Of a DNA stretch of 64,000 nt, positions 4,875-45,573 are shown piece by piece. Within the stretch, counting starts at the first letter, position 1. Each line of letters opens with the position of its first letter. The DNA is from an uncultured bacterium (GTDB taxonomy: Bacteria > Bipolaricaulota > Bipolaricaulia > UBA7950 > UBA9294). Location: assembly GCA_903857865.1 (NCBI GenBank), contig CAIOGO010000020.1, forward strand, positions 43,064-107,063, read 5' to 3'. The notes beneath the pieces are model-generated. The model did not search any database and was not told where the DNA came from. It was given only the letters and a program-made list of their open reading frames with translations. Both the position numbers and the translations under genes were made by a program.

Positions 4875-4902
4875 TTGCATTGGAAGTGCGGCTCGGTATA
4901 CT
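4875..4902 (+). promoter_or_regulatory. Sigma-70-like promoter (TTGCAT-16 nt-TATACT) for the plus-strand small-ORF/GNAT/ABC operon, divergent from gatE
   Basis: Hexamers TTGCAT (4875-4880) and TATACT (4897-4902) read directly in the sequence; same -10 hexamer recurs at two other operon heads in this window. Confidence 0.45.
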
Positions 4903-4995
4903 GGCGCTCACTCAATCCAGCGAATGAGCCGCCGCGTCACTCTCGATGCGGCGGGCGGCGAGAGCCCTGACGGGCCACGTGCAAGGAGGCGGTCC

Positions 4996-31414: not shown

Positions 31415-33259
31415 GTGGAAGCGATCCGGCAGGCGAAAGCCTGGCCGGGCGGCGCAGTGTGGATCTGGCAGTGGAGAATGGAACAGAAAATCAAGATGGA
31501 GGACGCTTTCTCTGAAAGCGATGTGAAGATGTACAGTCGCGGAGACACGATCTCCGGGACTGTCGTCCAAGTAGGCGACAGCGAGATCCTTGTCGACATC
31601 GGCTACAAGTCGGAAGGAATCCTGCCGGTGTCGGAGCTGTCCCCCTTCCGAGCGGGCGGGAAGATCGATGCGGGCGAGCAGATCGAGGTGCTCGTCACGT
31701 ACATCGATGAGGAGAAGGGGACCGTCTACGCGTCCGAGAAGCAGGCCGAATACGAGAAGCGCATCGACGGCCTCGAGGCCGCGTACCAAGAGGGCCACGT
31801 TATCGAGGGCGAGATTACAGGCGAGGTCAAGGGGGCCGGGTACCACGTAAATCTCGATGGCATCCGCGCCTTTCTGCCAGGCTCGCACCTCGGCAGCGAC
31901 CTGCCGAGCAGCATTGAGGAGCTGCGCGGGAAGAGAATTGCGTTCCGGATTCTCGAGCTCTCTCGCCGTGACAAGAACCTGGTCGTCTCGCACAAGGAGT
32001 ACATCAAGGACCGCGAGCGCACGAAGCGCAAGGCGCTCTTCGACTCGCTCCAGCCGGATCAGGAGATCGAGGGCGTCGTCCGCAGCGTCGTCGACTTCGG
32101 TCTGTTCGTCGATATCGGTGGTTTCGAAGGGCTCGTCCATCGATCGGAGATTGCGTGGAAGGACCTCCCCGTCCCTCCGTCCGAGTATAGAGTCGGCACG
32201 CACACCAAGGTGAAGGTCATCGACTTCGATCGTGAGAAGGGCAAGGTCTCCCTCTCGATTAAGCGTCTGCGCCCGAATCCGTGGAGCGGCATCTCGGAGC
32301 GCTACGCGACGGGCTCGCAGGTCGAAGGGAAGGTCGTCAGCGTCACCGACTTCGGCGCGTTCGTCGAGCTCGAACAAGACATCGAAGGGCTCGTCCACAT
32401 CTCAGAACTTTCGTGGGGACACCCGGAGAATCCGAAGGACGTCGTCAAAGAGGGCGACATGGTGCCCGTCATCATCCTCAGCTGTGATGAGGAGGCGCGC
32501 CGCATCAGCCTGTCGTTGCGGCGAACGCAGCGCGACCCGTGGGAGAGCGTCGAGACGAAGTACGCTCGCGGCCAGGTTGTCGCGGGAACCGTCACGAAGA
32601 TCACGGACTTTGGGGCGTTCGTGAAGCTCGAAGAGGGTGTCGAGGGACTGGTCCACGTCTCGGAGATCGACTGGGGGCATGTTAACCACCCGCGCGACGT
32701 CCTGAAGGAAGGCGAGAGCGTCCAAGTCAAGATCCTCAGCGCGGACCCGCGCGAGCGTCGCATCTCGCTCAGCATCCGCGAGCTCAAGGATAACCCGTGG
32801 CGGCGATTCATCGACAAGTTCTCGATCGATGATGTTGTGGACGGCGAGATCACCGAGATCAAAGAGTTCGGCGCCTTCATGAAGATCACCGACGAAGTCG
32901 ACGGGCTGATTCACGTCTCCGAGATCTCGAACGAGCGCATCGCCACCCCCGCCGACGTCCTCGCCGTGGGTCAGAAGATCCAAGCGAAGATCATCGGCAT
33001 CAACGAGGAGAAGCACCAGGTTCGCCTCAGCATGCGCAACCTGTTCGGCCCACCGGAGGTTCCCGCTGTCCCGACCGACGACGAAGACCGGGACCGCGCC
33101 GGACGAGGCAAGCGACGCCGCGCGACGCCCGCAGGAAAGGAACGGCCGGCGCGAGCGAGAGAGAAGGTTGATCGACGCTTCCTCGACGAGGGCGGCCACG
33201 AGTCGCTCAGCATGCGCGATCTCTTGGGCAAGACTGGGTTTGACGACGAGGCTCAATAG
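31415..33259 (+). CDS. rpsA: 30S ribosomal protein S1
   Basis: Six tandem S1 domains (repeated G.V..ItdfGaFV..e.gveGLvH.SEi); start could be GTG 31415, ATG 31478 or ATG 31496. Confidence 0.9.
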   Translation: MEAIRQAKAWPGGAVWIWQWRMEQKIKMEDAFSESDVKMYSRGDTISGTVVQVGDSEILVDIGYKSEGILPVSELSPFRAGGKIDAGEQIEVLVTYIDEEKGTVYASEKQAEYEKRIDGLEAAYQEGHVIEGEITGEVKGAGYHVNLDGIRAFLPGSHLGSDLPSSIEELRGKRIAFRILELSRRDKNLVVSHKEYIKDRERTKRKALFDSLQPDQEIEGVVRSVVDFGLFVDIGGFEGLVHRSEIAWKDLPVPPSEYRVGTHTKVKVIDFDREKGKVSLSIKRLRPNPWSGISERYATGSQVEGKVVSVTDFGAFVELEQDIEGLVHISELSWGHPENPKDVVKEGDMVPVIILSCDEEARRISLSLRRTQRDPWESVETKYARGQVVAGTVTKITDFGAFVKLEEGVEGLVHVSEIDWGHVNHPRDVLKEGESVQVKILSADPRERRISLSIRELKDNPWRRFIDKFSIDDVVDGEITEIKEFGAFMKITDEVDGLIHVSEISNERIATPADVLAVGQKIQAKIIGINEEKHQVRLSMRNLFGPPEVPAVPTDDEDRDRAGRGKRRRATPAGKERPARAREKVDRRFLDEGGHESLSMRDLLGKTGFDDEAQ

Positions 33260-33295
33260 GAAGACGAGAGCAGGTTGCAAGGAGGCTTGTAGAAG

Positions 33296-33607
33296 ATGAA
33301 CAAGGGCGAATTCATCGATCGGCTGGCGGAGAAGTCGAACCTTACGAAAAAGGAAGCGCGGAAGCTGCTTGACAACGTGCTTGATCTGGTTCAGGACTCC
33401 CTCCTGACTGGCGACGAAGTCAAGCTGGTGGGGTTCGGGAAGTTCGCCGTGCGCGCACGCAAGGCGAGCAGCCGCATCAATCCGCAGACCAAGCGGCCGA
33501 TTCAGGTGGAAGCGAAGGTCGTCCCGCTGTTCAAGCCGGGGAAGGAGCTGAAGCGCCGAATCGAGAAGGCGCTCAAGGCGGCGCCGAAGGGCGTCACAAG
33601 AAAGTAG
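33296..33607 (+). CDS. hup: HU family DNA-binding protein with Lys-rich C-terminal tail
   Basis: MNKGEFIDRLAEKSNLTKKEA...GFGKF...R.A.SRINPQT; RBS AAGGAGG before ATG. Confidence 0.9.
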   Translation: MNKGEFIDRLAEKSNLTKKEARKLLDNVLDLVQDSLLTGDEVKLVGFGKFAVRARKASSRINPQTKRPIQVEAKVVPLFKPGKELKRRIEKALKAAPKGVTRK

Positions 33608-33713
33608 CTTTCCTCGTTGGTCGGATTCTCATGGGGTGCCGGGCCGTGCGCCTGGCATCCCATTCTTCTCGCCGATCCGCGACGCGCCGCACCCGGGCCT
33701 ATGGAAGGGGTGC

Positions 33714-34346
33714 TTACGCGTTCGATTCTACCGAGAGAACGCGCAGACGCTCGGCCTCGACGATCGCGCTGAGCTCCCGAACGGCGTTCTCGATCGTGTC
33801 GTTGATCACGAGGTAGTCGAAGATCGGCAGGGCCTCGATCTCGCGCGACGCCACCCGAAGGCGCTCGGCGATCGCCGCCTCGCTTTCCGACCCGCGGGCG
33901 CGCAGTCGCTCGCCCAGCTGATCGAGGGAGGGTGGGGCGAAGAAGACGAACACGAGAACGGTCCCCGGCACCCCAACGCGGCGGAGCTCGCAGGCACCTT
34001 GGGTGTCGATGTTCAGGACGATATCGAACCCCTTGGCCGCAAGCCGCGTGATCTCGCATTCCGACGTGCCGTACTGGTCGCCGAGGTAGATCACGTGCTC
34101 GATGAACGCGCCCGCGGCGACCATTCGGTCGAAGTCGACGGTAGAGACGAAGTGGTAGTCGACCCCGTCTTCTTCGCCGGGGCGCGGCGGCCGCGTCGTG
34201 TGCGATACGGAGTAGACGAGGTCCGGGGTGTCGGTGAGAAGACGGTCGATCGCCGTGTTCTTCCCGGCTCCGGAAGGCCCGGAGACGACAAGCGCGAGAC
34301 CACTCCCCGTCCCTCTGCGGCGGGCGGCGAGCCCGCTACTCGACAT
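33714..34346 (-). CDS. gmk: Guanylate kinase
   Basis: P-loop GPSGAGK, TTRPPRPGEEDGVDYHF. Confidence 0.9.
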   Translation of the reverse strand: MSSSGLAARRRGTGSGLALVVSGPSGAGKNTAIDRLLTDTPDLVYSVSHTTRPPRPGEEDGVDYHFVSTVDFDRMVAAGAFIEHVIYLGDQYGTSECEITRLAAKGFDIVLNIDTQGACELRRVGVPGTVLVFVFFAPPSLDQLGERLRARGSESEAAIAERLRVASREIEALPIFDYLVINDTIENAVRELSAIVEAERLRVLSVESNA

Positions 34347-35199
34347 TCTGCACCTGCTCTTTCAGCTGTTCGATCGCAACCTTCATGTCGACCGTGAGGC
34401 CCGCAACCTCCCCATCTCGCACCTTCGAGCCGAGCGTGTTCACCTCGCGCAAGAGTTCCTGGGCGAGGAAGTCGAGCTCCTTGCCGACGGGGCCGCCACG
34501 CGAGAGGAGCTGGCGGACCCGAGCGACGTGGCCGCGCAGTCGGACGAGCTCCTCCTGGACGTCAAATCGATCCACGCACAGCACAATCTCCGACTCGATG
34601 CGGTCGGGGTCGACACGCAGACCCAGCTCGTCGATGCGCGCGTGGAGCTTGTCGCGCAGATCGTCCTGGATTCCCGGGAGACGGGCCTCGGCTTGCGTGC
34701 CTCGCGCCTCAAGCACATCGAGCAGGCGAGCGATCTCTTCCCCGAGCAAGTGCCCCTCTCGGCTGCGCGTCGCATCTAGGGCTCGGATGGCTTCTCCCAG
34801 AGCCGCCTCGACGGCGGGCCAGAGAGCCTCCTCGGCCTCTTGCGGCGCCTGCAGTCCGCCGGCGCGAATGAGGTCAGCCAACGTGAGGGGCTCGCGAAGC
34901 CCAAACTCCGCGCGCGCGCCTTCGAGCGCCCGCACGACGCGACGTGCCGCGTCGCGATCGAAGCCCAAGGCCGCCCCCGTCCCTACCTCTTCGCTGATCG
35001 TGAGCCAGACGCCGACGTCTCCACGGTGAAGCGCCGCGCGCACCTTCTCCTCAATCTGGGACTGCAGCCAGGGGCGGTCGGACAGCGACCGAAGGCGGAT
35101 CGAAAGGTAGCGGTGATTCACGGAGCGAAGCGTCGCCTCGACGCGCCAGCCGCCCACCGCCGCGGCTCCGCGGCCAAACCCCGTCATGCTGCGAATCAT
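34336..35199 (-). CDS. yicC: YicC family stress-induced protein
   Basis: N-terminus MIRSMTGFGRG, NHRYL; RBS AAGGAGAA before ATG at 35199; track ORF extended to 35355. Confidence 0.85.
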   Translation of the reverse strand: MIRSMTGFGRGAAAVGGWRVEATLRSVNHRYLSIRLRSLSDRPWLQSQIEEKVRAALHRGDVGVWLTISEEVGTGAALGFDRDAARRVVRALEGARAEFGLREPLTLADLIRAGGLQAPQEAEEALWPAVEAALGEAIRALDATRSREGHLLGEEIARLLDVLEARGTQAEARLPGIQDDLRDKLHARIDELGLRVDPDRIESEIVLCVDRFDVQEELVRLRGHVARVRQLLSRGGPVGKELDFLAQELLREVNTLGSKVRDGEVAGLTVDMKVAIEQLKEQVQNVE

Positions 35200-36026
35200 G
35201 AGTTCTCCTTGGCGAACAGGACCGCCGCGTACCCGACGACCGCCGACCGGTCGCCGGTGATGTCGCCCGATGTCGCGTAGTCGACGAGCGACGACCTCCC
35301 CAAGCCGAGAGTCCGGGCGAGCAGGAGAAGGACAGTGATCGCCCCCGCGCCACAAATGGAGAGCCCGCGCTCGATCGTGTGCCGATAGAAGCCCTGAGCG
35401 TCTCCAGCCAGGATAAGGTCGAGCGCCGATCGGTCGAGGGCACGTGCCGCCGCGTCCGGCTCGTAGTGCGTGAAATCACTGGACGCCACAACCCATACCC
35501 GGTCAGAGCCGAGCGCCTCCCCGAGCCGCCTCGCTCCTTCGTTCAGCGCTGACCACGGTGCGAGCTGGACGCACACCGGCACGACGGGTGTCGGCTCCGG
35601 GAAAAGGACCTGCAGGAAGGGCAGGACGACCTCCATGGAGTGCTCGCGGCGGAAGGCGTCGGGGCTGCGCGACACCCCGAGCGACACCAGACGCTCGATC
35701 GTCCCATCGTCCAGGGGAACGTCCCCGAGCGGGGTCCGCCACGCTGCGTCGCCGGGCACCACGAGTGCGTCGCCCAGCCGACTGTGGCTCGCTCCCAGGA
35801 TAATGACCGCTTCGGGCCGCCCGAACGCGGTAGCGGCGCGCAACCCGGCGCCCGCGACCCGTCCCGAGTACTCATAGCCGGCGTGCGGCACGATGAGCCC
35901 GACAGAGGATGGAGCGCGTGCAGGCGTCGGTTCCCCCAGAAGTCCCTCCACGAGCGCACGTAGGCGCGCTCGCTCCCCGGGGTAGAACGACCCCGCGACC
36001 ACCGGCTGCCGCACACCACTTCCCAT
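35196..36026 (-). CDS. MEMO1-family protein (AmmeMemoRadiSam system protein B-like)
   Basis: VVAGSFYPG, IVPHAGYEYSG, SSDFTHY; ATGA overlap with yicC; track ORF continues to 36449 across a tRNA and is truncated here. Confidence 0.75.
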   Translation of the reverse strand: MGSGVRQPVVAGSFYPGERARLRALVEGLLGEPTPARAPSSVGLIVPHAGYEYSGRVAGAGLRAATAFGRPEAVIILGASHSRLGDALVVPGDAAWRTPLGDVPLDDGTIERLVSLGVSRSPDAFRREHSMEVVLPFLQVLFPEPTPVVPVCVQLAPWSALNEGARRLGEALGSDRVWVVASSDFTHYEPDAAARALDRSALDLILAGDAQGFYRHTIERGLSICGAGAITVLLLLARTLGLGRSSLVDYATSGDITGDRSAVVGYAAVLFAKENS

Positions 36027-36110
36027 GCCGCCATTGTACCCACGCTCGTCCGCCCAGCCCAAGCGGGTCTTGACGAGAGCGCGCACCCTCGCGTACCATG
36101 CCGTCTCGTC

Positions 36111-36181
36111 TGGGAGATCGTTCAATGGCAGGACAGCAGGCTCTGGCCCTGTTAATGGGGGTTCGAATCCTCCTCTCCCAA
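36111..36181 (+). tRNA. tRNA-Gln (anticodon CUG)
   Basis: Manual fold: 7-bp acceptor TGGGAGA/TCTCCCA, D-arm GTTC-AATGGCA-GGAC, anticodon arm GCAGG-CTCTGGC-CCTGT with CTG centred after U33, T-arm GGGGG-TTCGAAT-CCTCC; no encoded CCA. Confidence 0.85.
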
Positions 36182-36226
36182 AAGGGAACCCTGAGGAGAT
36201 CCTCCTTCTCAGGGTTCCCTTTTGGG
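36182..36226 (+). terminator. Intrinsic-terminator-like hairpin directly after tRNA-Gln
   Basis: Perfect 15-bp inverted repeat AAAGGGAACCCTGAG / CTCAGGGTTCCCTTT with 12-nt loop followed by TTTTGGG. Confidence 0.5.
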
Positions 36227-36434
36227 TGCGGCGGTGAGAAGTCCCACCCCGAGGAAGGAGTTCGCGTCGGCGAACTCCCCAGTGACTGGAGAACCGAAGA
36301 GCCACTCCAGTCGCCATCCTCCTCTCCCGGTTCTGGGCGGTGAGAACCCCCAAGAGAAAGAAGGAGTTTGCGGCCACAGACTCCCGAGCAACTGGAGAGC
36401 CGAAGAACCGCTCCCGTTGCCATCCTCCTCTCCC
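36224..36434 (+). repeat. Two tandem ~105-nt units, each ending in a copy of the tRNA-Gln 3' end (ATCCTCCTCTCCC)
   Basis: ATCCTCCTCTCCC at 36167-36179 (in tRNA), 36316-36328 and 36422-36434; units also share GCGGTGAGAA, GAAGGAGTT.GCG and ACTGGAGA.CCGAAGA.CC blocks. Confidence 0.6.
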
Positions 36435-36660
36435 AACAGGTACGTGCAACGTCTGTTCCTGTCCGCGTTGACGTGCTCGCTGTTCTGATTGGCATATCTC
36501 AGACCTTCGGAGTCACTTCGCGGATTCGATCTCCTGTCCTTTCCTGCAGAAGAGTGCTGCTCGTGGATTCTGCGCCCAGCCCACTCCATCATTGGCAGGA
36601 GGACTGACTCACTGGATCGCCGGGCAAGCGCGCACACCGGGAATGCGAGGAGGGGACCCC

Positions 36661-37119
36661 ATGAAGTGCTTGACAATCAACCCCGAAGCCATCGACATCG
36701 ATGCCCTGGTAGAACGTGGAACATCACTCCACGGCCATTGCGGCCCATTCCTCGTGCTCGGCATCCGTATGGGTCTGCAGGCGCTCACTTTGCTTCATCA
36801 TCCAGGCTACTTCGGCCTCCGTGCCGAATCCGAGGCCGGTTCAACGCCACCACTCTCATGCCTCAATGACGGCATACAGGTCGGCTCTGGGTGCACGATG
36901 GGCAAAGGGAATCTCAGCATCGTCGGCAACAGCCGACCCCGCGTTCGCTTTGTTGCTGACGACGGCGCAAGTATCAGTATCGAGATCCGAGCCGATGTTC
37001 TTCGCGCTGTGCAACGTGGGGAGATTGACGAGCTCGGGACGCTATTGCGTCGCCGTCCCGCTGATGAGTTGTTCGCGTGGACAAGTCCGACCTCACCCAG
37101 TACAGCGTCATCATCGTGA
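36661..37119 (+). CDS. FmdE/FwdE-family protein
   Basis: HGHCGPFLVLGIRMG matches the FwdE-family HGHxCP...G.RM core; RBS GAGGAGGGG before ATG at 36661. Confidence 0.65.
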   Translation: MKCLTINPEAIDIDALVERGTSLHGHCGPFLVLGIRMGLQALTLLHHPGYFGLRAESEAGSTPPLSCLNDGIQVGSGCTMGKGNLSIVGNSRPRVRFVADDGASISIEIRADVLRAVQRGEIDELGTLLRRRPADELFAWTSPTSPSTASSS

Positions 37120-37381
37120 CTCGCATCCTGGAACCCGAGCGGGAGCCAGAGTCCTAAGATCGTCCTCCACTCCCAACTGGCAGCTACACGTTCGTACTCT
37201 TGCGTAGGTGCATGCATTTTCCCGGTCCGTGAGGCGCCACCTCGAATGCTCCGCTCGCCAATTGTGTTGCGGAAGTCAGTTTGTTCCTGGTCTAGCAGTG
37301 ACTGTTACACCCCGGTCATGAGGCGGGGTCCACTTCGAGGATTATGAACGTATGTGTATAATGCTCTCCTGCGGGGCGATC

Positions 37382-37843
37382 ATGGCGAGACCACAGTGTT
37401 GTCGAAGAATCGCAGCGATGCCTATTGCAGAAGCGTTTGGGCCGGTTCCCGCTTCGGCTTGCGCGCCTGATCAAGTCGTCATCACCCTCGACGAGTTCGA
37501 GGCGGTGCGCCTCGCCGATCTCGAGGAGCTCTACCAGGAACGCGCCGCCGAGAGGATGGGCGTTTCACGGCCCACGTTCAGCCGGATCATCGAGTCTGCA
37601 CACCGGAGGATTGCCGAGGCCCTGGTCAGTGGCAAGAGTCTGAGGATTGAGGGCGGTTCCGTTCGTGTACACCCGACGGGGCCATCTCGCTGCCGGCAGT
37701 GTGGACGGGAGTCGGCCGGTACGTATGAGTGCCCGCATTGCCGTGGAGACTGCAGCGTGAAGACCACGCATAAGACAGGGTCTGCTGCCTCGCAAACGAA
37801 CAAACGCAGACGCAGCCGGACCGAATCTGACCGCATTACGTAG
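37382..37843 (+). CDS. DUF134 (UPF0251) predicted DNA-binding protein with C-terminal Cys cluster
   Basis: ITLDEFEAVRLADLEELYQERAAERMGVSRPTFSRIIESAHRRIAEALVSG typical of DUF134; C-terminal CRQCG...CPHC; start among three Met candidates. Confidence 0.65.
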   Translation: MARPQCCRRIAAMPIAEAFGPVPASACAPDQVVITLDEFEAVRLADLEELYQERAAERMGVSRPTFSRIIESAHRRIAEALVSGKSLRIEGGSVRVHPTGPSRCRQCGRESAGTYECPHCRGDCSVKTTHKTGSAASQTNKRRRSRTESDRIT

Positions 37844-37881
37844 GCTGGGTACCTGGAGCACCCGGCAAAGGAGACGAGAAG

Positions 37882-38268
37882 ATGAACCTCTGCATTCCAG
37901 TGACCGAGGGCAAACGGCTTCAAAGCCCAGTGAGTGGGCACTTCGGGTCGGCGCCGTTCTTCGCGATCGTCGACCGAGACACAGGAGCCTGTCGCATTGT
38001 CCCGAATAGAGACGCCCAGCACAGCCATGGCGCATGCCAGCCACTCGCGAGTCTCGCCGGCGAAGGGGTAGACGCTGTCGTTGTTGGCGGCATAGGTGCG
38101 GGCGCGCTGAGCAAGCTGCAAGCAGCAGGCGTCAGCGTCTTCCTGTCAGAGGAGCCGACGGTCGAGGCCGTCCTAGCGGCTCTCAAGGCCGGAACACTGC
38201 AGCTGGCAACGCCCGCCACTTCCTGTGCGCACCGCCAGCACGGGCACTGTCCTGAGGAAGCCGCGTGA
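37882..38268 (+). CDS. NifB/NifX-like (dinitrogenase FeMo-cofactor-binding fold) family protein
   Basis: Small protein with GHFGSAPFFAIVD...VDAVVVGGIGAGA pattern typical of the family; RBS AAAGGAGA before ATG. Confidence 0.65.
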   Translation: MNLCIPVTEGKRLQSPVSGHFGSAPFFAIVDRDTGACRIVPNRDAQHSHGACQPLASLAGEGVDAVVVGGIGAGALSKLQAAGVSVFLSEEPTVEAVLAALKAGTLQLATPATSCAHRQHGHCPEEAA

Positions 38269-38321
38269 TGGAGTCGGGAGGAACGCCCGAGGGTAGATTC
38301 ATCGGGTGGTAGCCTTCGCCT

Positions 38322-38786
38322 GTGCAGCCACCCTGGAGGACAGCGTTGGACACGATCATCCTGTATGCGATAGCTGTCGCCTTGCTAGCGGTTTCTGCGG
38401 CCAGGGATCGCGAGAAAGCGAAACGAGCCATCCTGAAGGGCGCGAAGGCCTTCGAGAGCATACTGCCGCAGCTTGTGACGGTTCTGCTTGCCGTTGCTGC
38501 CGTCCTCGCGGTCTTCAACCCGGAGATAGTCTCGCGGGTGATCGGCGAACGATCGGGGTTCTTCGGCATCCTTGCTGCTTCCGTCGTCGGGGGGATTGCC
38601 CTCATCCCCGGGTTCGGTGCCTTCCCCGCTGCGGCGGAACTCCTGAGGAGCGGCGCGGGGACGATGCAGATCGCGGCTTTCGTGTCGTCCTTGATGATGG
38701 TTGGCGTTGTGACCCTGCCCATGGAGATCAGGTACTTCGGTCGGCGTGCGGCTATCGCGCGGAACTTGCTCGCTTGCGATTCATGA
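38322..38786 (+). CDS. Small integral membrane protein (permease-like), unknown function
   Basis: Three to four predicted TM stretches; start uncertain. Confidence 0.5.
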   Translation: MQPPWRTALDTIILYAIAVALLAVSAARDREKAKRAILKGAKAFESILPQLVTVLLAVAAVLAVFNPEIVSRVIGERSGFFGILAASVVGGIALIPGFGAFPAAAELLRSGAGTMQIAAFVSSLMMVGVVTLPMEIRYFGRRAAIARNLLACDS

Positions 38787-38937
38787 ATCAGCATCCTCGA
38801 CCCCTCCGCAGCGAATACCCCGCTAGGGTAATCCTCTGCCAGACTTCGGGTCCTTGAGGTTGGTCGGACATCTGATCTAGTCGCACCCGATACACTGAGG
38901 CGGTCGGATTCTGCTATCCTCCCCTCAAGGAGGGAGC

Positions 38938-39555
38938 GTGAAGAGGGCGGCGCTGCTCGCGGTCGAGTTGATTCTTTGTTCGATTCCGCTTCTTGCTGGC
39001 CTTCCCAGCCTTCCTGTTCATGCTGACTCGTCAGACGTAGTCAATCCACTTGTCGCAGGTTCTGCCTATCGGGGTGCACCTGAGGTCCGATACGCTGCGA
39101 TCACGGCTGAGAAGGCGCAGGACCTCGCCACGATTGTCGGCAACATCGCTCCAGTTTCTCAGGAGACAAGAGTGCGCAGGAATATCGCCCATGCATCATT
39201 CTGCCTTCCTCAGAATGTGCTTGGGACTCTCTACTACGGGTTGCTCCAGCTCACTGGGAATGTTGTGGGCACTGCAGATATGAACGAGATGAAGATCATC
39301 GTGACCAGAACCCCCTTCGGCGTTTCATTGGGGAGGTACATCTTCGTCAGCACGTCCCTGCAGACTGAGAACACTGTAAGGCATGAGTATGGCCATACTA
39401 TGCAGGGCTACAAGCATGGCCCCTTCTACCTCCCGTTTGAGGGTTTGGTATCCCTTGTTCAGGCGGCCATCTCGCTGATCTCGCCCTCTTTCGCGAATCG
39501 CTACTTCGACAGGTGGCCTGAGAACGAGGCGAATGAACTCAGCGGGGTCAAATGA
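38938..39555 (+). CDS. Secreted hypothetical protein (signal peptide, possible HxxxH metal site)
   Basis: N-terminal signal-like LAVELILCSIPLLAGLPSLPVHA; visibly lower G+C than core genes; RBS AAGGAGGGAG before GTG. Confidence 0.5.
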   Translation: MKRAALLAVELILCSIPLLAGLPSLPVHADSSDVVNPLVAGSAYRGAPEVRYAAITAEKAQDLATIVGNIAPVSQETRVRRNIAHASFCLPQNVLGTLYYGLLQLTGNVVGTADMNEMKIIVTRTPFGVSLGRYIFVSTSLQTENTVRHEYGHTMQGYKHGPFYLPFEGLVSLVQAAISLISPSFANRYFDRWPENEANELSGVK

Positions 39556-39848
39556 GAGGCTGGCCTGTCCTCCAACCTCCGGTTCAACTCCAGCCTAGTA
39601 CCTCCCGTGGTAACTTCAGGCTCCACGCTGTCACCCGGTAGTCAGGATGAAGATTCCGGTTACGCCCATGCAGGCTCCTCGGCAGCGGCGCTTCTTCTCC
39701 CCAGGGGCGTTTCATGGTCCGCGGCCAGTCCCTCAAGCTCTTCGGCTTCTCTGCAGACGGTGCAGCGCTTCTCCGATGGCCTCGACTGCCACCGTAGCCT
39801 CCCTCCTCCGGAACGCAAGCCAAGGTGAGAATACCCTCGCTCTGCGGC

Positions 39849-40958
39849 TCAGCCTTCGGGGGATAGGTCCGTTCTAGGGTCGGTCTTCGCGAGGGCGGCC
39901 TCGAGTTCGCCGAGGAGCTCGGCGATGAGGTCCTTGACCGAGACGATCTTGTCGATCCGGTGGGCGTTCTGCCCACAGAAGACGAGGCCGTGGTCCACGT
40001 CTCCCCGACAGGCGTTCAGAAGGGCCTGGGCGATGCAGAACTTGGCCTCCGCGACCTTGCAGGCGGTCAGGCAATGGTACGGGCAATGGACCTGCGGAGG
40101 GTCCGCCTTCTCGAGGTCTACTAGAAACTTGTTCCGGATGGCGCGCCCAGGGAGACCGACGGGGCTCTTGATGATGACAATGTCCTCTTCCCTGGCGTCG
40201 AGATAGGTCTGCTTAAAGGCTTTGGCGGCATCACACTCCCAGGTGCAGACGAATCTCGTGGCCATCTGGACTCCGGATGCGCCAAGCCGCAGCATGCGGG
40301 CGATGTCGTGCCCGTCGTAGATGCCCCCAGCGGCGATGACCGGGATCGCCTTACCGTGGCGCTCTTCGTAAGGCTTCACGGTCTCTAGCACCTGGGGCAC
40401 GAGGGTCTCGAGTGCGAAGTCCTCCACATGCTGGAGTTCATCGCGGGAGAATCCGAGGTGTCCTCCTGCGAGGGGGCCCTCGAGGATGAAAGCGTCGGCG
40501 GTCCTCTCGTAGCGCTTCGCCCAAGCGCGAAGGATCAGGTCTGCGGCGCGAGCTGAGCTGACGATGGGAACGAGGTTCACCGAGGGGTCCGGGACCATCT
40601 CGGGCAGCCGCATCGGAAGACCTGCGCCAAAGACAATCATCTTGATGCCTTCTTCGACGGCCGTCTCCACAAGAACCTCGACGTTCCTGACTGCGCCCAT
40701 GAAGTTGACCGCGAGGATCCCCTGGGTCATGGATCGTGCCTTGCGGATCTCCGCCCGCAAGGCCTCGCAGGAGACGCGCTCGTAGTCCCGCGCGCCCCGC
40801 TCGAGATCGCCGAGCCCGATGCTGGAGATCGTGCCGATGCCGCCTTCCTCAGCCACTGCCGCAGCGAGGGACGCCATCGAGATCCTGACCCCCATCCCCC
40901 CTTGGACGATGGGGATATCGGCAATGAGGTCTCCGATACGAAGCTTTGGGATGCTCAT
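39849..40958 (-). CDS. Enoyl-[ACP] reductase FabK-like / nitronate monooxygenase family flavoprotein
   Basis: IVQGGMG N-terminal motif, AAGGI.DG FMN-binding region; RBS AAGGAAGAGAGG before ATG at 40958; ATGA overlap with upstream KAS gene. Confidence 0.8.
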   Translation of the reverse strand: MSIPKLRIGDLIADIPIVQGGMGVRISMASLAAAVAEEGGIGTISSIGLGDLERGARDYERVSCEALRAEIRKARSMTQGILAVNFMGAVRNVEVLVETAVEEGIKMIVFGAGLPMRLPEMVPDPSVNLVPIVSSARAADLILRAWAKRYERTADAFILEGPLAGGHLGFSRDELQHVEDFALETLVPQVLETVKPYEERHGKAIPVIAAGGIYDGHDIARMLRLGASGVQMATRFVCTWECDAAKAFKQTYLDAREEDIVIIKSPVGLPGRAIRNKFLVDLEKADPPQVHCPYHCLTACKVAEAKFCIAQALLNACRGDVDHGLVFCGQNAHRIDKIVSVKDLIAELLGELEAALAKTDPRTDLSPEG

Positions 40959-42262
40959 AGGCACCTCTCTTCCTTGAATCGCCTGACGACGAGGCAGGCG
41001 TTCCCGCCGCCGAAGCCGAACGACTGGGTCATCGCGACGTCGGGCTCGGTGAGCTCGGCTCCTTGGGTCACGTAGTCCAGGGGGCAATCCGGATCCGCTC
41101 GCTCATAGTTGATCGTCGAAGGGATCCAGCCGGTGGAGATACTCAGCACGGTGGCCGCGAACTCGACCGCCCCGGCCGCGGCGAGCAGGTGGCCGATCAT
41201 CGACTTGATCGAGCTGATCTTGAGTTTCGTGGCGTGGACTCCGAAGAGCCTCATCACCGCCGCGCTTTCGATCTTGTCGTTCAACACGGTGGACGTACCG
41301 TGGGCATTGATGTAGTCGACGTCCGTGGGGGCAACGCCGGCGTCGCGCAGCGCTCCCTGCATCGCGCGGAGCATGCCGTCGCCGTCGGGCTCCGGCGCGG
41401 TGATGTGGAACGCATCGGCCGTGTTGCCGTAACCCGTCAACTCAGCGTAGATCGGCGCCTGACGTCCGAGCGCGTGGTCGAGCCTCTCCAACACGACCAC
41501 ACCGGCTCCCTCGCCCATGACGAACCCATCGCGGTCCTTGTCGAACGGGCGGCTGGCGTGTTCGACATCGTCATTTCTGGTGGACATTGACCGTGTCCCG
41601 CAAAAACTGCCAAAAGGCAGCGGGCTCACACTGGCCTCCGCCCCTCCGGCCAGCATGATGTCGGCGTCGCCCCTTTCGAGGATGCGGTACGCATCGCCGA
41701 TGGCGTTCGCCCCGGTGGAGCAAGCAACGGACGGCGCGGACAGAGGGCCCTTCAGGCCATGGGTGATGGACACCATGCACGCAGCGGTGTTGATGAGGAC
41801 TTTGGTGACGACGAAGGGGCCCAGAGCGCGCGGGCCCTTCGCCAAGAGCTGGGCGTGTTCGGTCTCGATGGTCTGCGTGCCGCCGATGCCCGAGCCGATG
41901 ATCACACCTGCCCGGCACCTGTCGTAGTCCGCCCCCTGCAGGCGGGCATCCCGCATGGCCAGGTCCGCGGCCACAAGGGCGAACTGCGTGAACCGGTCCA
42001 CGCGTCGGGCAACCTTCTCGTCAAGCCAGTCTTCGGCACGGAAGTCCTTCACCTCTCCAGCCATCTGCGATCGATAGGCGGCCGGATCGAACAGGGTCAC
42101 GCGTGAAATGCCGTTTTGTCCGGCGAGCAGCTTCTCCCAGAAGGCCTCACGCCCTATGCCGATGGGGGTTGCGACGCCGATGCCGGTCACGACCACCCGA
42201 TGTCGCTGCAGGACGCGAGCCTCCCCACGGCCGCTCACCGATCCCAACCCCCCGACCCGCAA
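40955..42262 (-). CDS. 3-oxoacyl-[ACP] synthase II paralog
   Basis: KAS motifs VACSTGANAIG, HGTST, GHLLAAAG, SFGFGGGNA; true start probably an internal GTG a few codons in. Confidence 0.85.
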   Translation of the reverse strand: MRVGGLGSVSGRGEARVLQRHRVVVTGIGVATPIGIGREAFWEKLLAGQNGISRVTLFDPAAYRSQMAGEVKDFRAEDWLDEKVARRVDRFTQFALVAADLAMRDARLQGADYDRCRAGVIIGSGIGGTQTIETEHAQLLAKGPRALGPFVVTKVLINTAACMVSITHGLKGPLSAPSVACSTGANAIGDAYRILERGDADIMLAGGAEASVSPLPFGSFCGTRSMSTRNDDVEHASRPFDKDRDGFVMGEGAGVVVLERLDHALGRQAPIYAELTGYGNTADAFHITAPEPDGDGMLRAMQGALRDAGVAPTDVDYINAHGTSTVLNDKIESAAVMRLFGVHATKLKISSIKSMIGHLLAAAGAVEFAATVLSISTGWIPSTINYERADPDCPLDYVTQGAELTEPDVAMTQSFGFGGGNACLVVRRFKEERCL

Positions 42263-42533
42263 TCTGACAGCAGCGGGTATGAAGACCGTCGGCTGGCGGT
42301 GTGTGCGTCAAGTGGCGGCAACGCCGGCGACCCTTGCTCTCTACCCACCATCGCTCTAGCCTCCTTGCCGTGTGTTCAGCGTAACCGGCAGAGTCACGCC
42401 AGGGCAACCTCGCCGATCACATGGCGGTTCTTGGAGTTTCCTCGATATAGGAGCACCTGCAAGGCATGGGACAAGGGGGGACGCGCGGATCGGAAAGGAA
42501 GCTCACGGAGTGCTACGGCAAAGGCCGCCGAGC

Positions 42534-43313
42534 TCACCCGAGCAGCAGTCTGTCGTCGGCCACCTCTCGCTGCGCGAAGAACTCGACGAGCTGAGGAACG
42601 CTCGCCGTTCTCTTCTCCTCTCCGGCAAGCTCGTAGAGGACCTCTCCCCTGTGCATCATGACGAGGCGATTCCCTACCTCGAGCGCCTGCGCCATGTTGT
42701 GGGTGACCATGAGCACGGTCAGACCCAGTCGCTCAACGAAGTCACAAGTCAACTGAGTGATCAGCGCGGCATTCCGCGGATCGAGCGCCGCCGTGTGTTC
42801 GTCGAGGAGGAGAACCTCGGGGCGGGCCAGCGTCGCCATCAGTACCGCGAGGGCTTGGCGCTCGCCGCCGGAGAGCAAGGACACCCGGCAATCCAAACGC
42901 TGTTCAAGTCCGATGCCAAGAGCCTCGAGACGGCGGTGGATCTCGTGGCGCAACCTGCGGGAGAGCGCCGGCCGCAGCGTCCGAGTCCCTCTCGACGCTG
43001 CGAGAGCAAGATTCTCCGCGACGGACATGGAGGGCGCCGTTCCTGCAAGCGGGTTCTGGACGATCCAGCTCACTCGCCGTGCCCGTCGATAGGCCGGCGC
43101 AGCGCTCACGTCATCCTCGCCAAGAACGATGCGCCCCGACGTGAGGGGGACGACGCCCGCGATCAGGTTCAGAAGGGTGCTCTTGCCGGCGCCGTTCGAG
43201 CCGATGATCGTGAGGAAGTCCCCGCGGGCCAGGAAGAGGCTCACCTCGCGTACAGCGACCACCGTGTCGGGACCAGAGCGGTACGTCTTGGAGACCTGTT
43301 CGATCCTCAGCAT
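42534..43313 (-). CDS. ABC transporter ATP-binding protein (uptake system)
   Basis: Walker A GSNGAGKST, signature LSGGERQ, Walker B LLLDEHTAALD. Confidence 0.85.
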   Translation of the reverse strand: MLRIEQVSKTYRSGPDTVVAVREVSLFLARGDFLTIIGSNGAGKSTLLNLIAGVVPLTSGRIVLGEDDVSAAPAYRRARRVSWIVQNPLAGTAPSMSVAENLALAASRGTRTLRPALSRRLRHEIHRRLEALGIGLEQRLDCRVSLLSGGERQALAVLMATLARPEVLLLDEHTAALDPRNAALITQLTCDFVERLGLTVLMVTHNMAQALEVGNRLVMMHRGEVLYELAGEEKRTASVPQLVEFFAQREVADDRLLLG

Positions 43314-44203
43314 GAGCTCACCTTCCGCAGCCGCCGCTCGCGGACGGCCGGGATAACGAGCGCCAGAATGACGAGAAGGGCTGTGATCAGCTTGAGATCG
43401 CTCGCCTGAAACCCCACGGCGTAGCCGTAGCGCAGTGCGATCACTACGGCCATCCGGTAGACGAGTGACCCAACCAGGACGCTGGCCGTCATCCAGCCCA
43501 CTCGCCGCGACCGGATGAGGGATCCGCCGAGGATGACGGCCGCGAGTCCCGTCACGATCGTCCCAATCCCCATCCCGATATCGGCGAATCCCCCGTACTG
43601 CGCGACGAGCGCCCCGGAGAGGGCGACAAGGCCGTTCGACAAGGCAAGGCCAAGCATCTTCATCGCGCGCGGATCGACGGCGTGGGCACTGACCATGGCC
43701 TCGTTGTCTCCGGCCGCTCGCAAGGCGAATCCGACCTCGGTCTTGAGGAAGAAGTCAAGGCCAAGCTTCACGGCCAGGGTGAGCAACGCGACGAACGCGA
43801 GGATGGCCAAGGGTCCGAGAGGCGACCAAGAGCCATCGACGACCTGCATCGCCGTCGAAGCGCGAAGCAGAGACAGGTTGGGACGCCCCATGATTCGCAG
43901 GTTGATCGAGTAGAGCATGATCATGGTGAGAACGCCGGCGAGCAGGCTGCTGATCCCAAGGCGGGTGTTGAGGAACCCCGTGACCATCCCCGCTGCCGCT
44001 CCGGCAAGGAATGCTGCGGCCAGCGCGAGGAAAGGATCACCGCCGTTCAAAATGAGGAGTGAGGCGATGGCCGCCCCGGTCACGAAGCTCCCGTCGACGG
44101 TCAGGTCGGGGAACTGCAGGACCCGATACGTCAGGAAGACGCCGAGAGCGGCGATCCCGTACGCCAGGCCTTGCTCAATCGCGTGCATCAGGAGTTCTGC
44201 CAT
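43307..44203 (-). CDS. ABC transporter permease
   Basis: Multi-TM protein tightly linked to ATPase and binding protein. Confidence 0.8.
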   Translation of the reverse strand: MAELLMHAIEQGLAYGIAALGVFLTYRVLQFPDLTVDGSFVTGAAIASLLILNGGDPFLALAAAFLAGAAAGMVTGFLNTRLGISSLLAGVLTMIMLYSINLRIMGRPNLSLLRASTAMQVVDGSWSPLGPLAILAFVALLTLAVKLGLDFFLKTEVGFALRAAGDNEAMVSAHAVDPRAMKMLGLALSNGLVALSGALVAQYGGFADIGMGIGTIVTGLAAVILGGSLIRSRRVGWMTASVLVGSLVYRMAVVIALRYGYAVGFQASDLKLITALLVILALVIPAVRERRLRKVSSC

Positions 44204-44221
44204 CGCCTCTCCTCTCTCTTG

Positions 44222-45226: not shown

Positions 45227-45366
45227 GTCTACTCCTTTGCGTGTATTCTTTCGGCGGGCCCCAATGAGCCCGCCAGGGCCGTTGGTGTTTCACCCACGCC
45301 GCCCGCAGGAATTCCGCAAGAGTGCCCTGCGGGCGGTACTCCTACCTTCCTGTTCGCCCACCTCCT

Positions 45367-45405
45367 CCAAAAAGGAGGCGACTGCGGGCAGTGCCCGCAG
45401 TCGCC
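45367..45405 (-). terminator. Intrinsic-terminator-like hairpin inside the leader of the ABC uptake operon (attenuator or end of a small RNA)
   Basis: Inverted repeat GGCGACTGCGGGCA / TGCCCGCAGTCGCC followed on the minus strand by CCTTTTTGG, about 150 nt upstream of the binding-protein start. Confidence 0.5.
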
Positions 45406-45544
45406 TCTCCGGTCTCTCCTCAGCCCCGCGCGCCCGCGGCTAGTTGGCTGGGGAGAAACCGGACGTAAACCAATACCAGCAGAAGTACGATGCGCTGACG
45501 ATCCTTCTCGCGGCCATCGACCCTGTTGGAGACATGTTGTATCG

Positions 45545-45573
45545 ACTATATGCTGCATAGCGATCCGTGTCAA
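45545..45573 (-). promoter_or_regulatory. Promoter-like TTGACA-17 nt-TATAGT on the minus strand
   Basis: Near-consensus hexamers read on the reverse complement, about 310 nt upstream of the binding-protein start and about 150 nt upstream of the terminator hairpin. Confidence 0.4.

What the first reader, a model, noticed from the sequence alone, without database searches (positions are those of the whole stretch)
36111..39600. tRNA-Gln followed by tandem copies of its 3' end and a lower-G+C island
The tRNA-Gln 3' segment ATCCTCCTCTCCC recurs twice downstream at the ends of two ~105-nt tandem units. This is the pattern left by site-specific integration into a tRNA 3' end. The next ~3 kb has visibly lower G+C and carries FwdE-like, DUF134, NifX-like, small membrane and secreted-protein genes unrelated to the flanking core genes. 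No integrase is seen, so the element may be decayed.
Basis: partly seen in the sequence, partly recalled or inferred. Interest (0 to 1): 0.65.

Follow-up and report, generated by a model that had tools for sequence, protein, structure and literature searches.

The report
tRNA-Gln gene-cassette array with structured repeats
Downstream of a glutamine tRNA gene in an uncultivated Bipolaricaulota bacterium lies a hot spot where small foreign gene cassettes are spliced in at copies of the tRNA's 3' end, and those copies sit in a conserved, folded ~100-base repeat that matches no described RNA family.

Summary
tRNA-Gln(CUG) lies at 36111-36181. Its 3' 13-mer recurs only at 36316 and 36422, ending two 106-nt-period units that are 78% identical.

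The reading "integration scars at a tRNA" is right in kind but too simple.

1. The units belong to a family with about 140 copies in about 60 Bipolaricaulota contigs. All lie downstream of tRNA-Gln on its strand. Two hairpins show strong compensatory covariation. Nothing in Rfam matches.
2. The unit's 3' end co-varies with the tRNA. Behind tRNA-Gln(UUG) genes it copies that tRNA's different acceptor strand, and only ATCCTCC is shared.
3. The low-G+C "island" is at least three cassettes: FmdE-like (36438-37176), DUF134/NifX-like/truncated permease (37177-38778), and a secreted-protein cassette. Cassette 1 ends in a conserved pseudo-tRNA 3'-half motif (37149-37176) that closes cassettes in 19 related loci.
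4. Relatives at 87-92% identity lack 36438-38772, and the boundary is exactly at the end of unit 2.
5. The window has no integrase. A relative carries a decayed tyrosine recombinase element at the same tRNA, bounded by the same motif.

Best reading: a tRNA-anchored additive cassette array built by site-specific recombination, with the structured units supplying extra attachment cores. Whether the units act as DNA or as RNA is unresolved.

The parts
36070..36099 (+). sigma-70-like promoter match (TTGACG-18-TACCAT) just upstream of tRNA-Gln
   Evidence: consensus match only, 1 found against 0.1 expected
36111..36181 (+). tRNA-Gln(CUG); its last 15 nt (36167-36181, ATCCTCCTCTCCCAA) are core copy 1
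   Evidence: the position next to Memo is conserved in Bipolaricaulota relatives
36169..36234 (+). hairpin H: 30-nt arms that pair the tRNA acceptor 3' strand (CTCCCAAAA) with downstream TTTTGGGTG. It resembles a terminator or an RNase III substrate.
   Evidence: I1, 87% complementary; DNA fold -25.3 kcal/mol, z -5.35. Behind tRNA-Gln(UUG) the flank changes to TTAGGGC to match that tRNA.
36230..36328 (+). unit U1: a loosely supported hairpin with loop UGAGAA at about 36231-36250; hairpin 1, 36257-36265 with 36270-36278; hairpin 2, 36282-36291 with 36305-36314; core copy 2 at 36316-36328
36336..36437 (+). unit U2: hairpin 1, 36363-36371 with 36376-36384; hairpin 2, 36388-36397 with 36411-36420; core copy 3 at 36422-36437. 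Its 3' end is the left junction of the cassette insertions.
36438..37176 (+). cassette 1 (740 bp): leader P' 36438-36660, FmdE-family gene 36661-37119, terminal pseudo-tRNA 3'-half motif P-O 37149-37176 (GAGTCCTAAGATCGTCCTCCACTCCCAA)
   Evidence: (1 match at up to 3 mismatches, 0 of 100 shuffles); G+C 0.591, GC3 0.614
37177..38778 (+). cassette 2, truncated at its right end: DUF134 37352-37843, NifX-like 37882-38268, half-size permease 38322/38346-38786, which lacks its last ~20 codons. The partner permease gene is missing.
   Evidence: 79% nt identity over 37342-38778 to a DUF134-NifX-permA(160 aa)-permB(184 aa) operon in L155-L158; the protein aligns to residues 1-140 of 160
38765..39600 (+). 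cassette 3 (older, shared): partial leader and a 205-aa protein gene 38938-39555 with a hydrophobic, signal-like N-terminus. A possible decayed core lies at 39566-39584 (GTCCTCCAACCTCCGGTTC).
   Evidence: 87-95% identical in L103, L109, L124, L128, L133 and L143, where it follows units or a P-O motif directly. The decayed core is my reading and is speculative.
39849..40970 (-). first core gene beyond the array (FabK-like NMO; FabF follows)
   Evidence: GC3 0.80
35196..36029 (-). Memo-family gene, the conserved core neighbour on the other side of the tRNA

Best explanation
The locus is the tRNA-proximal end of an additive, hypervariable gene-cassette array anchored on tRNA-Gln. The array type is found widely in Candidatus Bipolaricaulota.

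Shown:
- Foreign segments of 0.7-5 kb are joined at a short core taken from the tRNA 3' end. ATCCTCC is common to all copies, followed by the acceptor 3' strand.
- The core is supplied by the tRNA itself or by the 3' end of a ~100-nt unit (U).
- Each cassette starts with a related leader (P') and ends with a conserved pseudo-tRNA 3'-half motif (P-O). After P-O comes either a long hairpin (H) plus units, or the next cassette.
- The window reads: tRNA | H | U1 | U2 | FmdE cassette | truncated DUF134-NifX-permease cassette | secreted-protein cassette | core genes.

Inferred:
- The joints are made by a tyrosine recombinase acting in trans. Most cassettes are non-autonomous mini-elements that keep both ends but carry no integrase.
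- The units act as additional attachment sites. They are duplicated and moved by recombination between cores, which would explain their variable copy number (0-5), their fixed orientation, and why their 3' end copies whichever tRNA-Gln isoacceptor they follow.

I put about 0.7 on the array-by-site-specific-recombination part. I put about 0.45 on the units acting at the DNA level, against about 0.35 for the units being primarily RNAs.
For: Presence/absence with a boundary at the core. L109/L143 (87-92% identical flanks), L133 and L124 go from units straight to window 38765/38773 onwards. L095 has tRNA | 3.4-kb insert | P-O | H | U. An L103 cassette is flanked by the direct repeat TCCTCCACTC[G/C]CAACCAACA.

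Conserved cassette ends. The exact-pattern scan found P-O in 19 loci; the window copy at 37149-37176 matches with one mismatch and 0 of 100 shuffles reached it. A looser pattern count gave these junction classes: tRNA followed by H/U 30, tRNA followed by P' 10, P-O followed by H/U 18, P-O followed by P' 11.

Orientation. All 90 unit hits in 35 tRNA-bearing loci are downstream of the tRNA and on its strand. No locus has units on both strands.

Isoacceptor co-variation. Behind tRNA-Gln(UUG), units end with ATCCTCCCGCCCTAA, which is that tRNA's own end.

Cargo is diverse and accessory: beta-propeller, MBL, redoxin, GNAT, hydrolase, MFS, PAS-HD, SBP, protease, HEPN. It lies on either strand.

Composition. 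The array has the lowest G+C in the window and low GC3.

Recombinase. L149 reads tRNA-Gln | 4.3-kb element with a frameshifted Phage_integrase gene | P-O-like motif. L112 has an integrase C-terminal fragment about 330 nt from a P-O/H/U module.

Units are under selection. 96.7% of cells are paired, 15 of 19 pairs changed on both sides, and 0 of 500 shuffles reached this. Hairpins 1 and 2 are 98% paired. Wobble pairs are rare (1.4%) with little strand bias, GU 26 against AC 19. This fits folding as DNA or as RNA.
Against: No recombinase is encoded in the window or in almost all array loci, and no excised circle or empty-site pair from one population was seen (L001-L007 are all identical). Cassette 2 has no right-hand core, because it is truncated. 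P-O is not identical to the tRNA in the T-loop and is conserved in a 'degenerate' form across species; simple displacement of tRNA ends does not predict this. A ~100-nt three-hairpin module is far larger than a normal attB, and arm sites of lambda-type integrases are not expected to show hairpin covariation. GU:AC is 22:9 in 30 representative units, a weak hint of RNA folding on the tRNA strand. E. coli has tRNA-linked repeats that give an sRNA with no cassettes involved. The family was collected with a pattern that required CCATCCTCC, so units with other 3' ends could not have been found.
Confidence: 0.6

Rival explanations
1. The units are primarily small structured RNAs made from the tRNA-Gln transcript or from read-through transcripts. 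Hairpin H would be an RNase III-type processing site, and the tRNA-like 3' end would serve in processing or in function, as with E. coli RttR. On this view cassettes insert there only because the RNA genes happen to carry the integrase's target sequence.
For: Units are always on the tRNA strand and within 120 nt of it in 33 of 35 loci. Two hairpins covary strongly, and the UGAGAA loop is conserved over a variable stem. There is a weak GU-over-AC bias on the tRNA strand, 22:9. H is a 22-29-bp near-perfect duplex that contains the tRNA 3' strand. There is a precedent: tyrT-tyrV is followed by three 178-nt repeats, the first overlaps 19 nt of the tRNA 3' end, and RttR is annotated in it.
Against: The units have no promoter of their own, and H looks like a terminator with an A-tract and a U-tract. 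Wobble pairs make up only 1.4% of cells and the larger set shows almost no strand bias. Units also follow P-O motifs deep inside arrays, next to genes on either strand. An RNA function does not explain why the 3' end must copy the local tRNA exactly. Nothing in Rfam matches.
Confidence: 0.25
2. One reading: the repeats are inert scars (attL/attR remnants) of one decayed integrative element that spans 36.4-39.6 kb.
For: tRNA-end copies, low G+C, foreign-looking genes and no integrase.
Against: Both repeats lie on the same side of the 'island', and there is no copy at 39.6 kb. The units are conserved with compensatory changes across deep lineages. The segment contains an internal cassette boundary, and part of it (38.77-39.6 kb) is shared by relatives that lack the rest.
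Confidence: 0.05
3. No site-specific enzyme is involved. Units and cassettes are shuffled by homologous or unequal recombination between repeated modules after DNA uptake from relatives, as is thought for the tyrT repeats, and the tRNA-end identity is maintained by gene conversion.
For: Modules are 80-97% identical over 100-270 nt between genomes. For example, window 36167-36350 matches L109 at 95% while the flanks match at 87-92%. This is ample homology for RecA. Unit copy number varies in tandem. The right end of cassette 2 is an illegitimate junction.
Against: L095, L106 and L149 have inserts directly at the tRNA end with only about 14 nt of shared sequence. The 740-bp cassette keeps both conserved ends. 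P-O and P' are conserved although they are not needed for homology-driven exchange. Integrase remnants are associated with P-O.
Confidence: 0.07
4. An integron-like platform. The hairpin plus its flanks (CTCCCAAC ... GTTGGGAG) would be a folded single-stranded attC-like site used by an IntI-like enzyme encoded elsewhere.
For: The flanks resemble the R'' (RYYYAAC) and R' (GTTRRRY) boxes at 6 of 7 positions and are mutually complementary. Cassettes are small and often hold a single gene. The arrays lack an integrase, like CALINs. Covariation is almost entirely Watson-Crick.
Against: The junctions lie at the 5' box (after CTCCCAA), not at G|TT of the 3' box. tRNA-to-P' junctions lack the hairpin altogether. 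H is nearly perfectly paired, without extrahelical bases. Many unit-to-unit and P-O-to-P' junctions have no hairpin. No IntI was found.
Confidence: 0.03

Closest known systems
tRNA-anchored additive genomic islands built by tyrosine-recombinase elements (Prochlorococcus tycheposon islands; Williams 2002 classes of tRNA integration sites)
   Same: A full tRNA gene lies at the proximal end, partial tRNA 3' copies lie between cargo blocks, the cargo is accessory and variable between close relatives, heterogeneity is highest next to the tRNA, and many blocks lack an integrase (bioRxiv 10.1101/2020.12.28.424599, read). The identity block runs from the T-arm to the tRNA 3' end, as Williams described (from my own knowledge).
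   Different: Cassettes can be as small as 740 bp, and both conserved ends are retained. There are no replication or integrase modules. The distal site is a conserved pseudo-tRNA half rather than a plain copy. A conserved ~100-nt structured unit carries exact extra copies of the core in tandem. Two tRNA-Gln isoacceptor genes are used, each with matching unit ends.
E. coli tyrT-tyrV distal repeats / RttR (rtT) sRNA
   Same: Tandem repeats lie directly downstream of a tRNA gene on its strand, and each ends with a copy of the tRNA 3' end (checked here: 178-nt period, 3 copies, 19-nt overlap with tyrV, rttR annotated).
   Different: There is no sequence or Rfam relationship. The E. coli repeats are 95% identical recent duplicates with no cassettes. 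Here the units are an old, covarying family spread over a phylum and interleaved with foreign genes.
Integron cassette arrays, attC sites and CALINs
   Same: Ordered arrays of small cassettes with diverse accessory genes are separated by structured repeats whose structure is conserved through compensatory change. Arrays often lack a nearby integrase.
   Different: The anchor is a tRNA gene, not attI/intI. The crossover lies at a tRNA-derived core. Site architecture, gene orientation (either strand) and junction positions do not fit attC.
Modular intergenic repeats (pneumococcal BOX, REP/BIME)
   Same: A modular build with a variable number of a middle module, and stable predicted hairpins.
   Different: The units are not dispersed: the 64-kb window holds only the two copies at the tRNA. 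All copies share one orientation and are tied to tRNA-Gln. The comparison with BOX and REP rests on my own knowledge.

Membership tests
tRNA-targeted integrative element / genomic island | intact tRNA gene at one boundary | tested here: met
   tRNA-Gln at 36111-36181, 57.1 bits
tRNA-targeted integrative element / genomic island | direct repeat of the tRNA 3' segment at the far end of the inserted DNA | tested here: met
   Cassette 1 is bounded by the core at 36422-36437 and by P-O at 37149-37176 (TCCTCCACTCCCAAC against TCCTCCTCTCCCAAC). This is not met for cassette 2, whose right end is truncated.
tRNA-targeted integrative element / genomic island | integrase gene inside the element | tested here: not met
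   phmmer with XerD, IntI1 and Hin against all window ORFs of 70 aa or more found nothing. Among relatives, only L149 (frameshifted gene) and L112 (fragment) have one.
tRNA-targeted integrative element / genomic island | presence/absence among relatives with the boundary at the repeat | tested here: met
   L109, L143, L133 and L124 lack 36438-38772, and the break is at the end of a unit
tRNA-targeted integrative element / genomic island | deviant composition | tested here: met
   G+C 0.599, about 3 sd below the window mean; GC3 0.61-0.755 against 0.79-0.85
Integron / CALIN | IntI-type integrase next to the array | tested here: not met
   No IntI1 or XerD homologue in the window or in the array loci, except the L112 fragment
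Integron / CALIN | attC architecture (R''-L''...L'-R', extrahelical bases, crossover at G|TT of R') | tested here: not met
   Junctions fall after CTCCCAA on the 5' side, and many junctions have no hairpin. Assessed by eye only; IntegronFinder's attC model was not available.
rtT/RttR tRNA-linked repeats (Rfam family rtT) | match to the family's covariance model | tested here: not met
   Only tRNA passes gathering thresholds. Nothing relevant appears at E up to 10.
rtT/RttR tRNA-linked repeats (Rfam family rtT) | units released as RNA from the tRNA transcript | not testable with these tools
   No expression data available
Tycheposon | tycheposon-clade tyrosine recombinase plus a replication module (primase/helicase) | tested here: not met
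   Absent from the window. L149 has an integrase and an ORC/Cdc6-like ATPase, but its clade was not determined.
Dispersed intergenic repeats (REP/BOX/MITE) | many copies scattered over the genome in both orientations | tested here: not met
   Two copies in 64 kb, both at the tRNA. No locus of 60 has units on both strands. A whole genome could not be scanned.

The most novel reading that the evidence does not exclude
Bipolaricaulota may carry a previously undescribed cassette-capture platform anchored on tRNA-Gln. In it, integrase-less mini-cassettes (P' - gene - pseudo-tRNA half) would be moved in trans. A conserved ~100-nt folded module, holding an exact copy of the host tRNA's 3' end, would be the cis-acting element that makes this possible. 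It could work as a folded single-stranded DNA site, as attC does, or as an RNA that pairs with the core and guides or regulates the recombinase. That would be a functional analogue of integrons with an independent origin.
Probability: 0.25. Interest if true: 0.85.

Novelty: new variant of a known kind. Interest (0 to 1): 0.66.

Why it matters
Integration at tRNA genes is textbook. Three features here go beyond it. The array is made of very small cassettes that keep both conserved ends without an integrase. The cassette-terminal motif is a conserved pseudo-tRNA half. A structured repeat tracks the sequence of the tRNA it follows.

If the units are cis-acting recombination modules, this is an integron-like route for gene acquisition in a poorly known, uncultivated phylum, and it gives a defined sequence to test with the L149-type integrase. 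If the units are RNAs, they are a new, abundant tRNA-linked RNA family with unusually clear covariation. Either way the unit model and the P-O motif are practical markers for finding flexible-genome regions in Bipolaricaulota MAGs. They also explain why assemblies break there and why the Memo gene is mis-called through the tRNA.

Tried and rejected
1. Small peptides on the minus strand (GGAGGATGG...). Rejected: there are no stops, the two units are in different frames, and the substitutions are compensatory in stems.
2. Minus-strand RNA, suggested by the A.C pattern in the hairpin-2 loop. Rejected: when loop position 11 is T, its partner is G in 9 cases and A in 2, so the loop is more simply a conserved ARCC...ARCC motif.
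3. An acceptor-like closing stem (5' TTGGGAG with 3' CTCCCAA) making the unit tRNA-like with an encoded CCA. Rejected: units not preceded by a hairpin lack the 5' strand, and the 'CCA' belongs to the following leader P'.
4. The P1 stem (AGGA with UCCU) and the first hairpin. P1 never varies, so it is uninformative. The first hairpin is only 72% paired in one register.
5. Known ribozymes, riboswitches and sRNAs. Nothing in Rfam matched on four searches.
6. A phage attP. There were no hits for the unit pattern or the P-O pattern in viral contigs.
7. A recurrent neighbouring recombinase. Clustering 398 ORFs from all loci found none. Y1_Tnp genes seen near two unrelated hits have no homologue in the array loci.
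8. The integrase-fragment family. Its homologues are mostly short ORFs in unrelated contexts, so it was not informative.
9. 'Half permease' as evidence of a large truncation. Corrected: the family is natively about 160 aa. The window copy lacks about 20 residues and the partner gene.
10. The FmdE orthologue at 82% identity (L150, L151) sits in another context without these motifs, so it neither shows nor excludes mobility of cassette 1.
11. Literature searches for Bipolaricaulota/Acetothermia with integron or genomic island gave nothing relevant.

Full report
1. THE OBSERVATION

ARAGORN and Rfam both call tRNA-Gln(CUG) at 36111-36181 on the + strand. The 13-mer ATCCTCCTCTCCC consists of the last T-loop base, the T-stem 3' strand and the acceptor 3' strand. 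It occurs three times in the 64 kb, at 36167, 36316 and 36422, and none of 100 shuffles gave three matches.

The last two copies end two tandem units at 36230-36328 and 36336-36434. The period is 106 nt and identity is 78%. Tandem Repeats Finder did not report them.

Between the tRNA and unit 1 lies a hairpin with 30-nt arms (36169-36234). Its 5' arm includes the tRNA's acceptor 3' strand. The fold gives z = -5.35.

The G+C claim holds. The stretch 36438-39600 has G+C 0.599. That is the lowest of all equal-sized windows (mean 0.657, sd 0.019). GC3 of the five genes is 0.61-0.755, against 0.79-0.85 for eight flanking genes.

2. THE ORGANISM AND THE ORTHOLOGOUS LOCUS

The exact FmdE protein occurs on 15 metagenome contigs that are more than 99.8% identical to the window, so they add no information.

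A scan of GTDB genomes with the neighbouring Memo protein places the window in Candidatus Bipolaricaulota (Acetothermia/OP1). Orthologues are 50-74% identical. tRNA-Gln(CUG) next to Memo is conserved in seven of these genomes.

What follows the tRNA differs in every genome. Homologues of the ~100-nt unit are present in 0, 1, 2 or 3-4 copies.

3. THE UNITS ARE A CONSERVED, STRUCTURED FAMILY

A pattern taken from the conserved blocks found 57 metagenome contigs and no viral contig. A covariance model found 118 non-overlapping matches, and nhmmer found 143 hits in 60 loci. The window has only its two copies.

In the 35 loci that also hold tRNA-Gln, all 90 unit hits are downstream of the tRNA and on its strand. 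In 33 of the 35, a unit lies within 120 nt of the tRNA. No locus has units on both strands. Clusters hold 1-5 units.

Two hairpins are strongly supported:
- On 100 distinct sequences, 96.7% of cells pair, against 85.4% in shuffles.
- 15 of 19 pairs show changes on both sides, and 214 cells carry double changes against 55 expected.
- No shuffle of 500 reached these values, and slid controls collapse to 32-47% paired.
- On an independent MAFFT alignment of 30 representatives, hairpins 1 and 2 are 98% paired.

A first hairpin with a conserved UGAGAA loop is only loosely supported (72% paired). A possible closing stem (AGGA with UCCU) never varies, so it is uninformative.

No Rfam family matches.

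Wobble pairs are rare, at 26 of 1829 cells, and barely exceed A.C, at 19. In the 30 representatives the ratio is 22:9. So the helices are kept almost purely Watson-Crick. There is at most a weak bias to the tRNA strand. This does not decide between folding as RNA and folding as single-stranded DNA.

4. THE 3' END OF THE UNIT TRACKS THE tRNA

Three contigs carry tRNA-Gln(UUG), whose acceptor stem differs (UAGGGCG / CGCCCUA). The units behind it end with GCCATCCTCCCGCCCTAA, which is that tRNA's own 3' end. The flank after the hairpin changes from TTGGGAG to TTAGGGC (fold).

The only part common to both tRNAs and all units is ATCCTCC. Everything 3' of it is specific to the locus. This is what recombination within or next to ATCCTCC would produce. 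I take ATCCTCC as the likely crossover region (inference).

5. THE 'ISLAND' IS A CASSETTE ARRAY

Maps of the related contigs show this layout: tRNA, hairpin, units, then 1.3-5 kb of genes, then hairpin and units again, and so on.

The junction sequences are conserved:
- On the left, a core from the tRNA or from a unit is followed by a related leader, P' (roughly AACCAGCGCNGGAAACGCAGT..CTGTCT).
- On the right, a conserved motif, P-O, follows a short hairpin: GAGTTCTAA(GA/AC)..GTCC(TCC)AC(T)ACTCCCAA. It is a diverged copy of the tRNA's T-loop, T-stem and acceptor strand.
- P-O is followed either by the hairpin plus units or directly by the next P'.

The exact-pattern scan finds P-O in 19 loci and in no viral contig.

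The window has one copy at 37149-37176, 30 nt after the FmdE stop codon. It has 1 mismatch, and no shuffle of 100 matched. This splits the window's segment as follows:
- Cassette 1, 36438-37176: FmdE only, 740 bp.
- Cassette 2, 37177-38778: DUF134, NifX-like and a permease.
- Cassette 3, about 38765-39600: the 205-aa protein gene.

Cargo in relatives is diverse and accessory: beta-propeller proteins, a metallo-beta-lactamase, redoxin, 4Fe-4S, GNAT, a hydrolase, MFS, PAS-HD, an SBP, a trypsin-like protease, beta-helix, caspase-like and HEPN proteins, plus an IS3 insertion. The genes lie on either strand. Because they lie on either strand, the units are unlikely to be cis-regulators of the next gene.

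6. PRESENCE AND ABSENCE

L109 and L143 match the window at 87% on the left (33001-36434) and 92% on the right (38773-42869). They have four units and nothing of 36438-38772. L133 and L124 also run from a unit into 38765/38773 onwards.

L103 has two different cassettes in that place. The second is flanked by the direct repeat TCCTCCACTC[G/C]CAACCAACA.

L095 and L106 have inserts directly after the tRNA. The 13-mer, hairpin and unit are displaced to the far side, behind a P-O.

The window's hairpin-U1-U2 module is 93% identical to L103's second module, which there follows a cassette's P-O. The window's core-hairpin-U1 stretch is 95-97% identical to modules in L109, L111 and L132, more than the flanking core genes are. 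So modules are exchanged, or are more strongly constrained than their surroundings.

7. CASSETTE 2 IS A TRUNCATED CAPTURE

Its genes (37342-38778) are 79% identical at the nucleotide level to an operon in L155-L158: DUF134, NifX, permA (160 aa) and permB (184 aa). That operon has no unit, core or P-O motifs.

The window's permease aligns to residues 1-140 of 160, and permB is absent. Homology to the operon ends at 38778, just where homology to the relatives' secreted-protein cassette begins. The right end is therefore a deletion or an illegitimate junction, not an att site.

8. THE RECOMBINASE

The window encodes no tyrosine or serine recombinase detectable with XerD, IntI1 or Hin as queries. 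No protein family recurs next to arrays.

Two traces exist:
- L112 has a C-terminal tyrosine-recombinase fragment (HxxR...Y) about 330 nt from a P-O/hairpin/unit module. Two ~62-nt tandem repeats lie between them.
- A homologue leads to L149, which reads: YicC, Memo, tRNA-Gln, a 4.3-kb AT-richer element, then a P-O-like motif (GGGAGTTCGAAAGCTGTCCACTACTGCCA). The element holds a frameshifted Phage_integrase gene and an ORC/Cdc6-like ATPase. There are no units there.

So integrase-bearing elements with this right end do integrate at this tRNA. The many small cassettes that keep both ends but no integrase look like non-autonomous derivatives moved in trans (inference).

9. MECHANISM AND RIVALS

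Best-supported reading: this is an additive cassette array seeded by tRNA-Gln. A tyrosine recombinase builds it at a tRNA-derived core. The units supply extra cores, which makes them secondary attachment sites. The units themselves are duplicated or moved by recombination between cores.

What remains unexplained is why the units are about 100 nt long, folded and so well conserved, and why P-O is conserved in a 'degenerate' form.

The main rival is that the units are RNAs, as with E. coli RttR. I checked that the tyrT-tyrV locus has three 178-nt repeats downstream of tyrV. The first overlaps 19 nt of the tRNA 3' end, and rttR is annotated in it. On this view the long hairpin could be an RNase III site rather than a terminator.

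Three other readings fit less well: inert scars, purely homologous shuffling, and a true integron. The reasons are listed under the rival explanations.

10. NOVELTY

tRNA-anchored islands with partial tRNA repeats are known, for example tycheposon islands. Three features go beyond that, and I found them in neither Rfam nor the searched literature:
- the conserved mini-cassette ends;
- the pseudo-tRNA terminal motif;
- the covarying unit that copies the local tRNA's end.

I class this as a new variant of a known kind. There is a minority chance (about 0.25) that it is an independent, integron-like capture system.

LIMITS
- Everything rests on metagenome contigs.
- The family was collected with a pattern that required CCATCCTCC.
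- No whole genome, read-level data or expression data could be examined.

Noticed in passing
L008 781-1194 (-), L010 828-1030 (-), L109 ~4130-4240 (-), L092, L096: A longer variant of the unit has two extra hairpins (GTGGCGACGTTCTCCGCAGGAGAACTCGTTCGTACCCCGCAGGGTACGCG). Some copies look like fusions of two units. The composite architecture is shared between species.
   Followed up: no
L112, reverse-complement coordinates ~4800-4960: Two ~62-nt tandem repeats lie between a tyrosine-recombinase C-terminal fragment and a P-O/hairpin/unit module. They could be arm-type binding sites of the original element.
   Followed up: partly
proteins P0001-P0120; loci L145, L148, L159, L160: The closest database relatives of the L112 integrase fragment are almost all ORFs of 55-136 aa. 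These are C-terminal catalytic fragments, some on contigs of 25 kb to 1 Mb. The few I inspected are decayed integrases in unrelated contexts.
   Followed up: partly
window 37342-38786; L155-L158: DUF134, a NifX-like gene and two half-size ArsP_1-type permease genes (160 + 184 aa) form a conserved operon elsewhere. The window copy lacks the end of the first permease and all of the second.
   Followed up: yes
window 39849-45700 compared with L133 7579-7985: L133 goes from the secreted-protein gene to the flavodoxin-like and M28 peptidase genes without the FabK-FabF-ABC transporter block that the window has. This is a second variable segment distal to the array.
   Followed up: no
L108 709-1602: An IS3-family transposase (rve domain) is inserted between two units. 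It has IS-type ends rather than P'/P-O ends.
   Followed up: partly
window 35196-36449 (-); gene calls in L003, L005, L007: Public gene calls extend the Memo ORF to 417 aa. The extension runs antisense through tRNA-Gln, the hairpin and both units, which is an annotation artefact. The real gene most likely starts at 36029.
   Followed up: yes
window 38765-38900 and L103, L109, L124, L133: The leader of the secreted-protein cassette holds a conserved ~100-nt stretch (GCGGATGAGGCGAGC.TGGAGTTCGAATCACGCAGCCTCCGCAAG...CTTGCGATTCATGAA). It includes another GGAGTTCGAA T-loop-like motif and a short conserved minus-strand ORF (MNRKSKxLAEAA).
   Followed up: no
L009, L010, L013, L014, L015 (contig ends): Several MAG contigs end within 0.1-1.5 kb of the Memo/tRNA-Gln locus. 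This fits assembly breaks caused by the repeated modules or by strain heterogeneity in the array.
   Followed up: no
window 39566-39584: GTCCTCCAACCTCCGGTTC, directly after the stop codon of the secreted-protein gene, loosely resembles a core followed by the unit-to-unit junction (ATCCTCCTCTCCCGGTTC). It may be the decayed distal end of the array.
   Followed up: no
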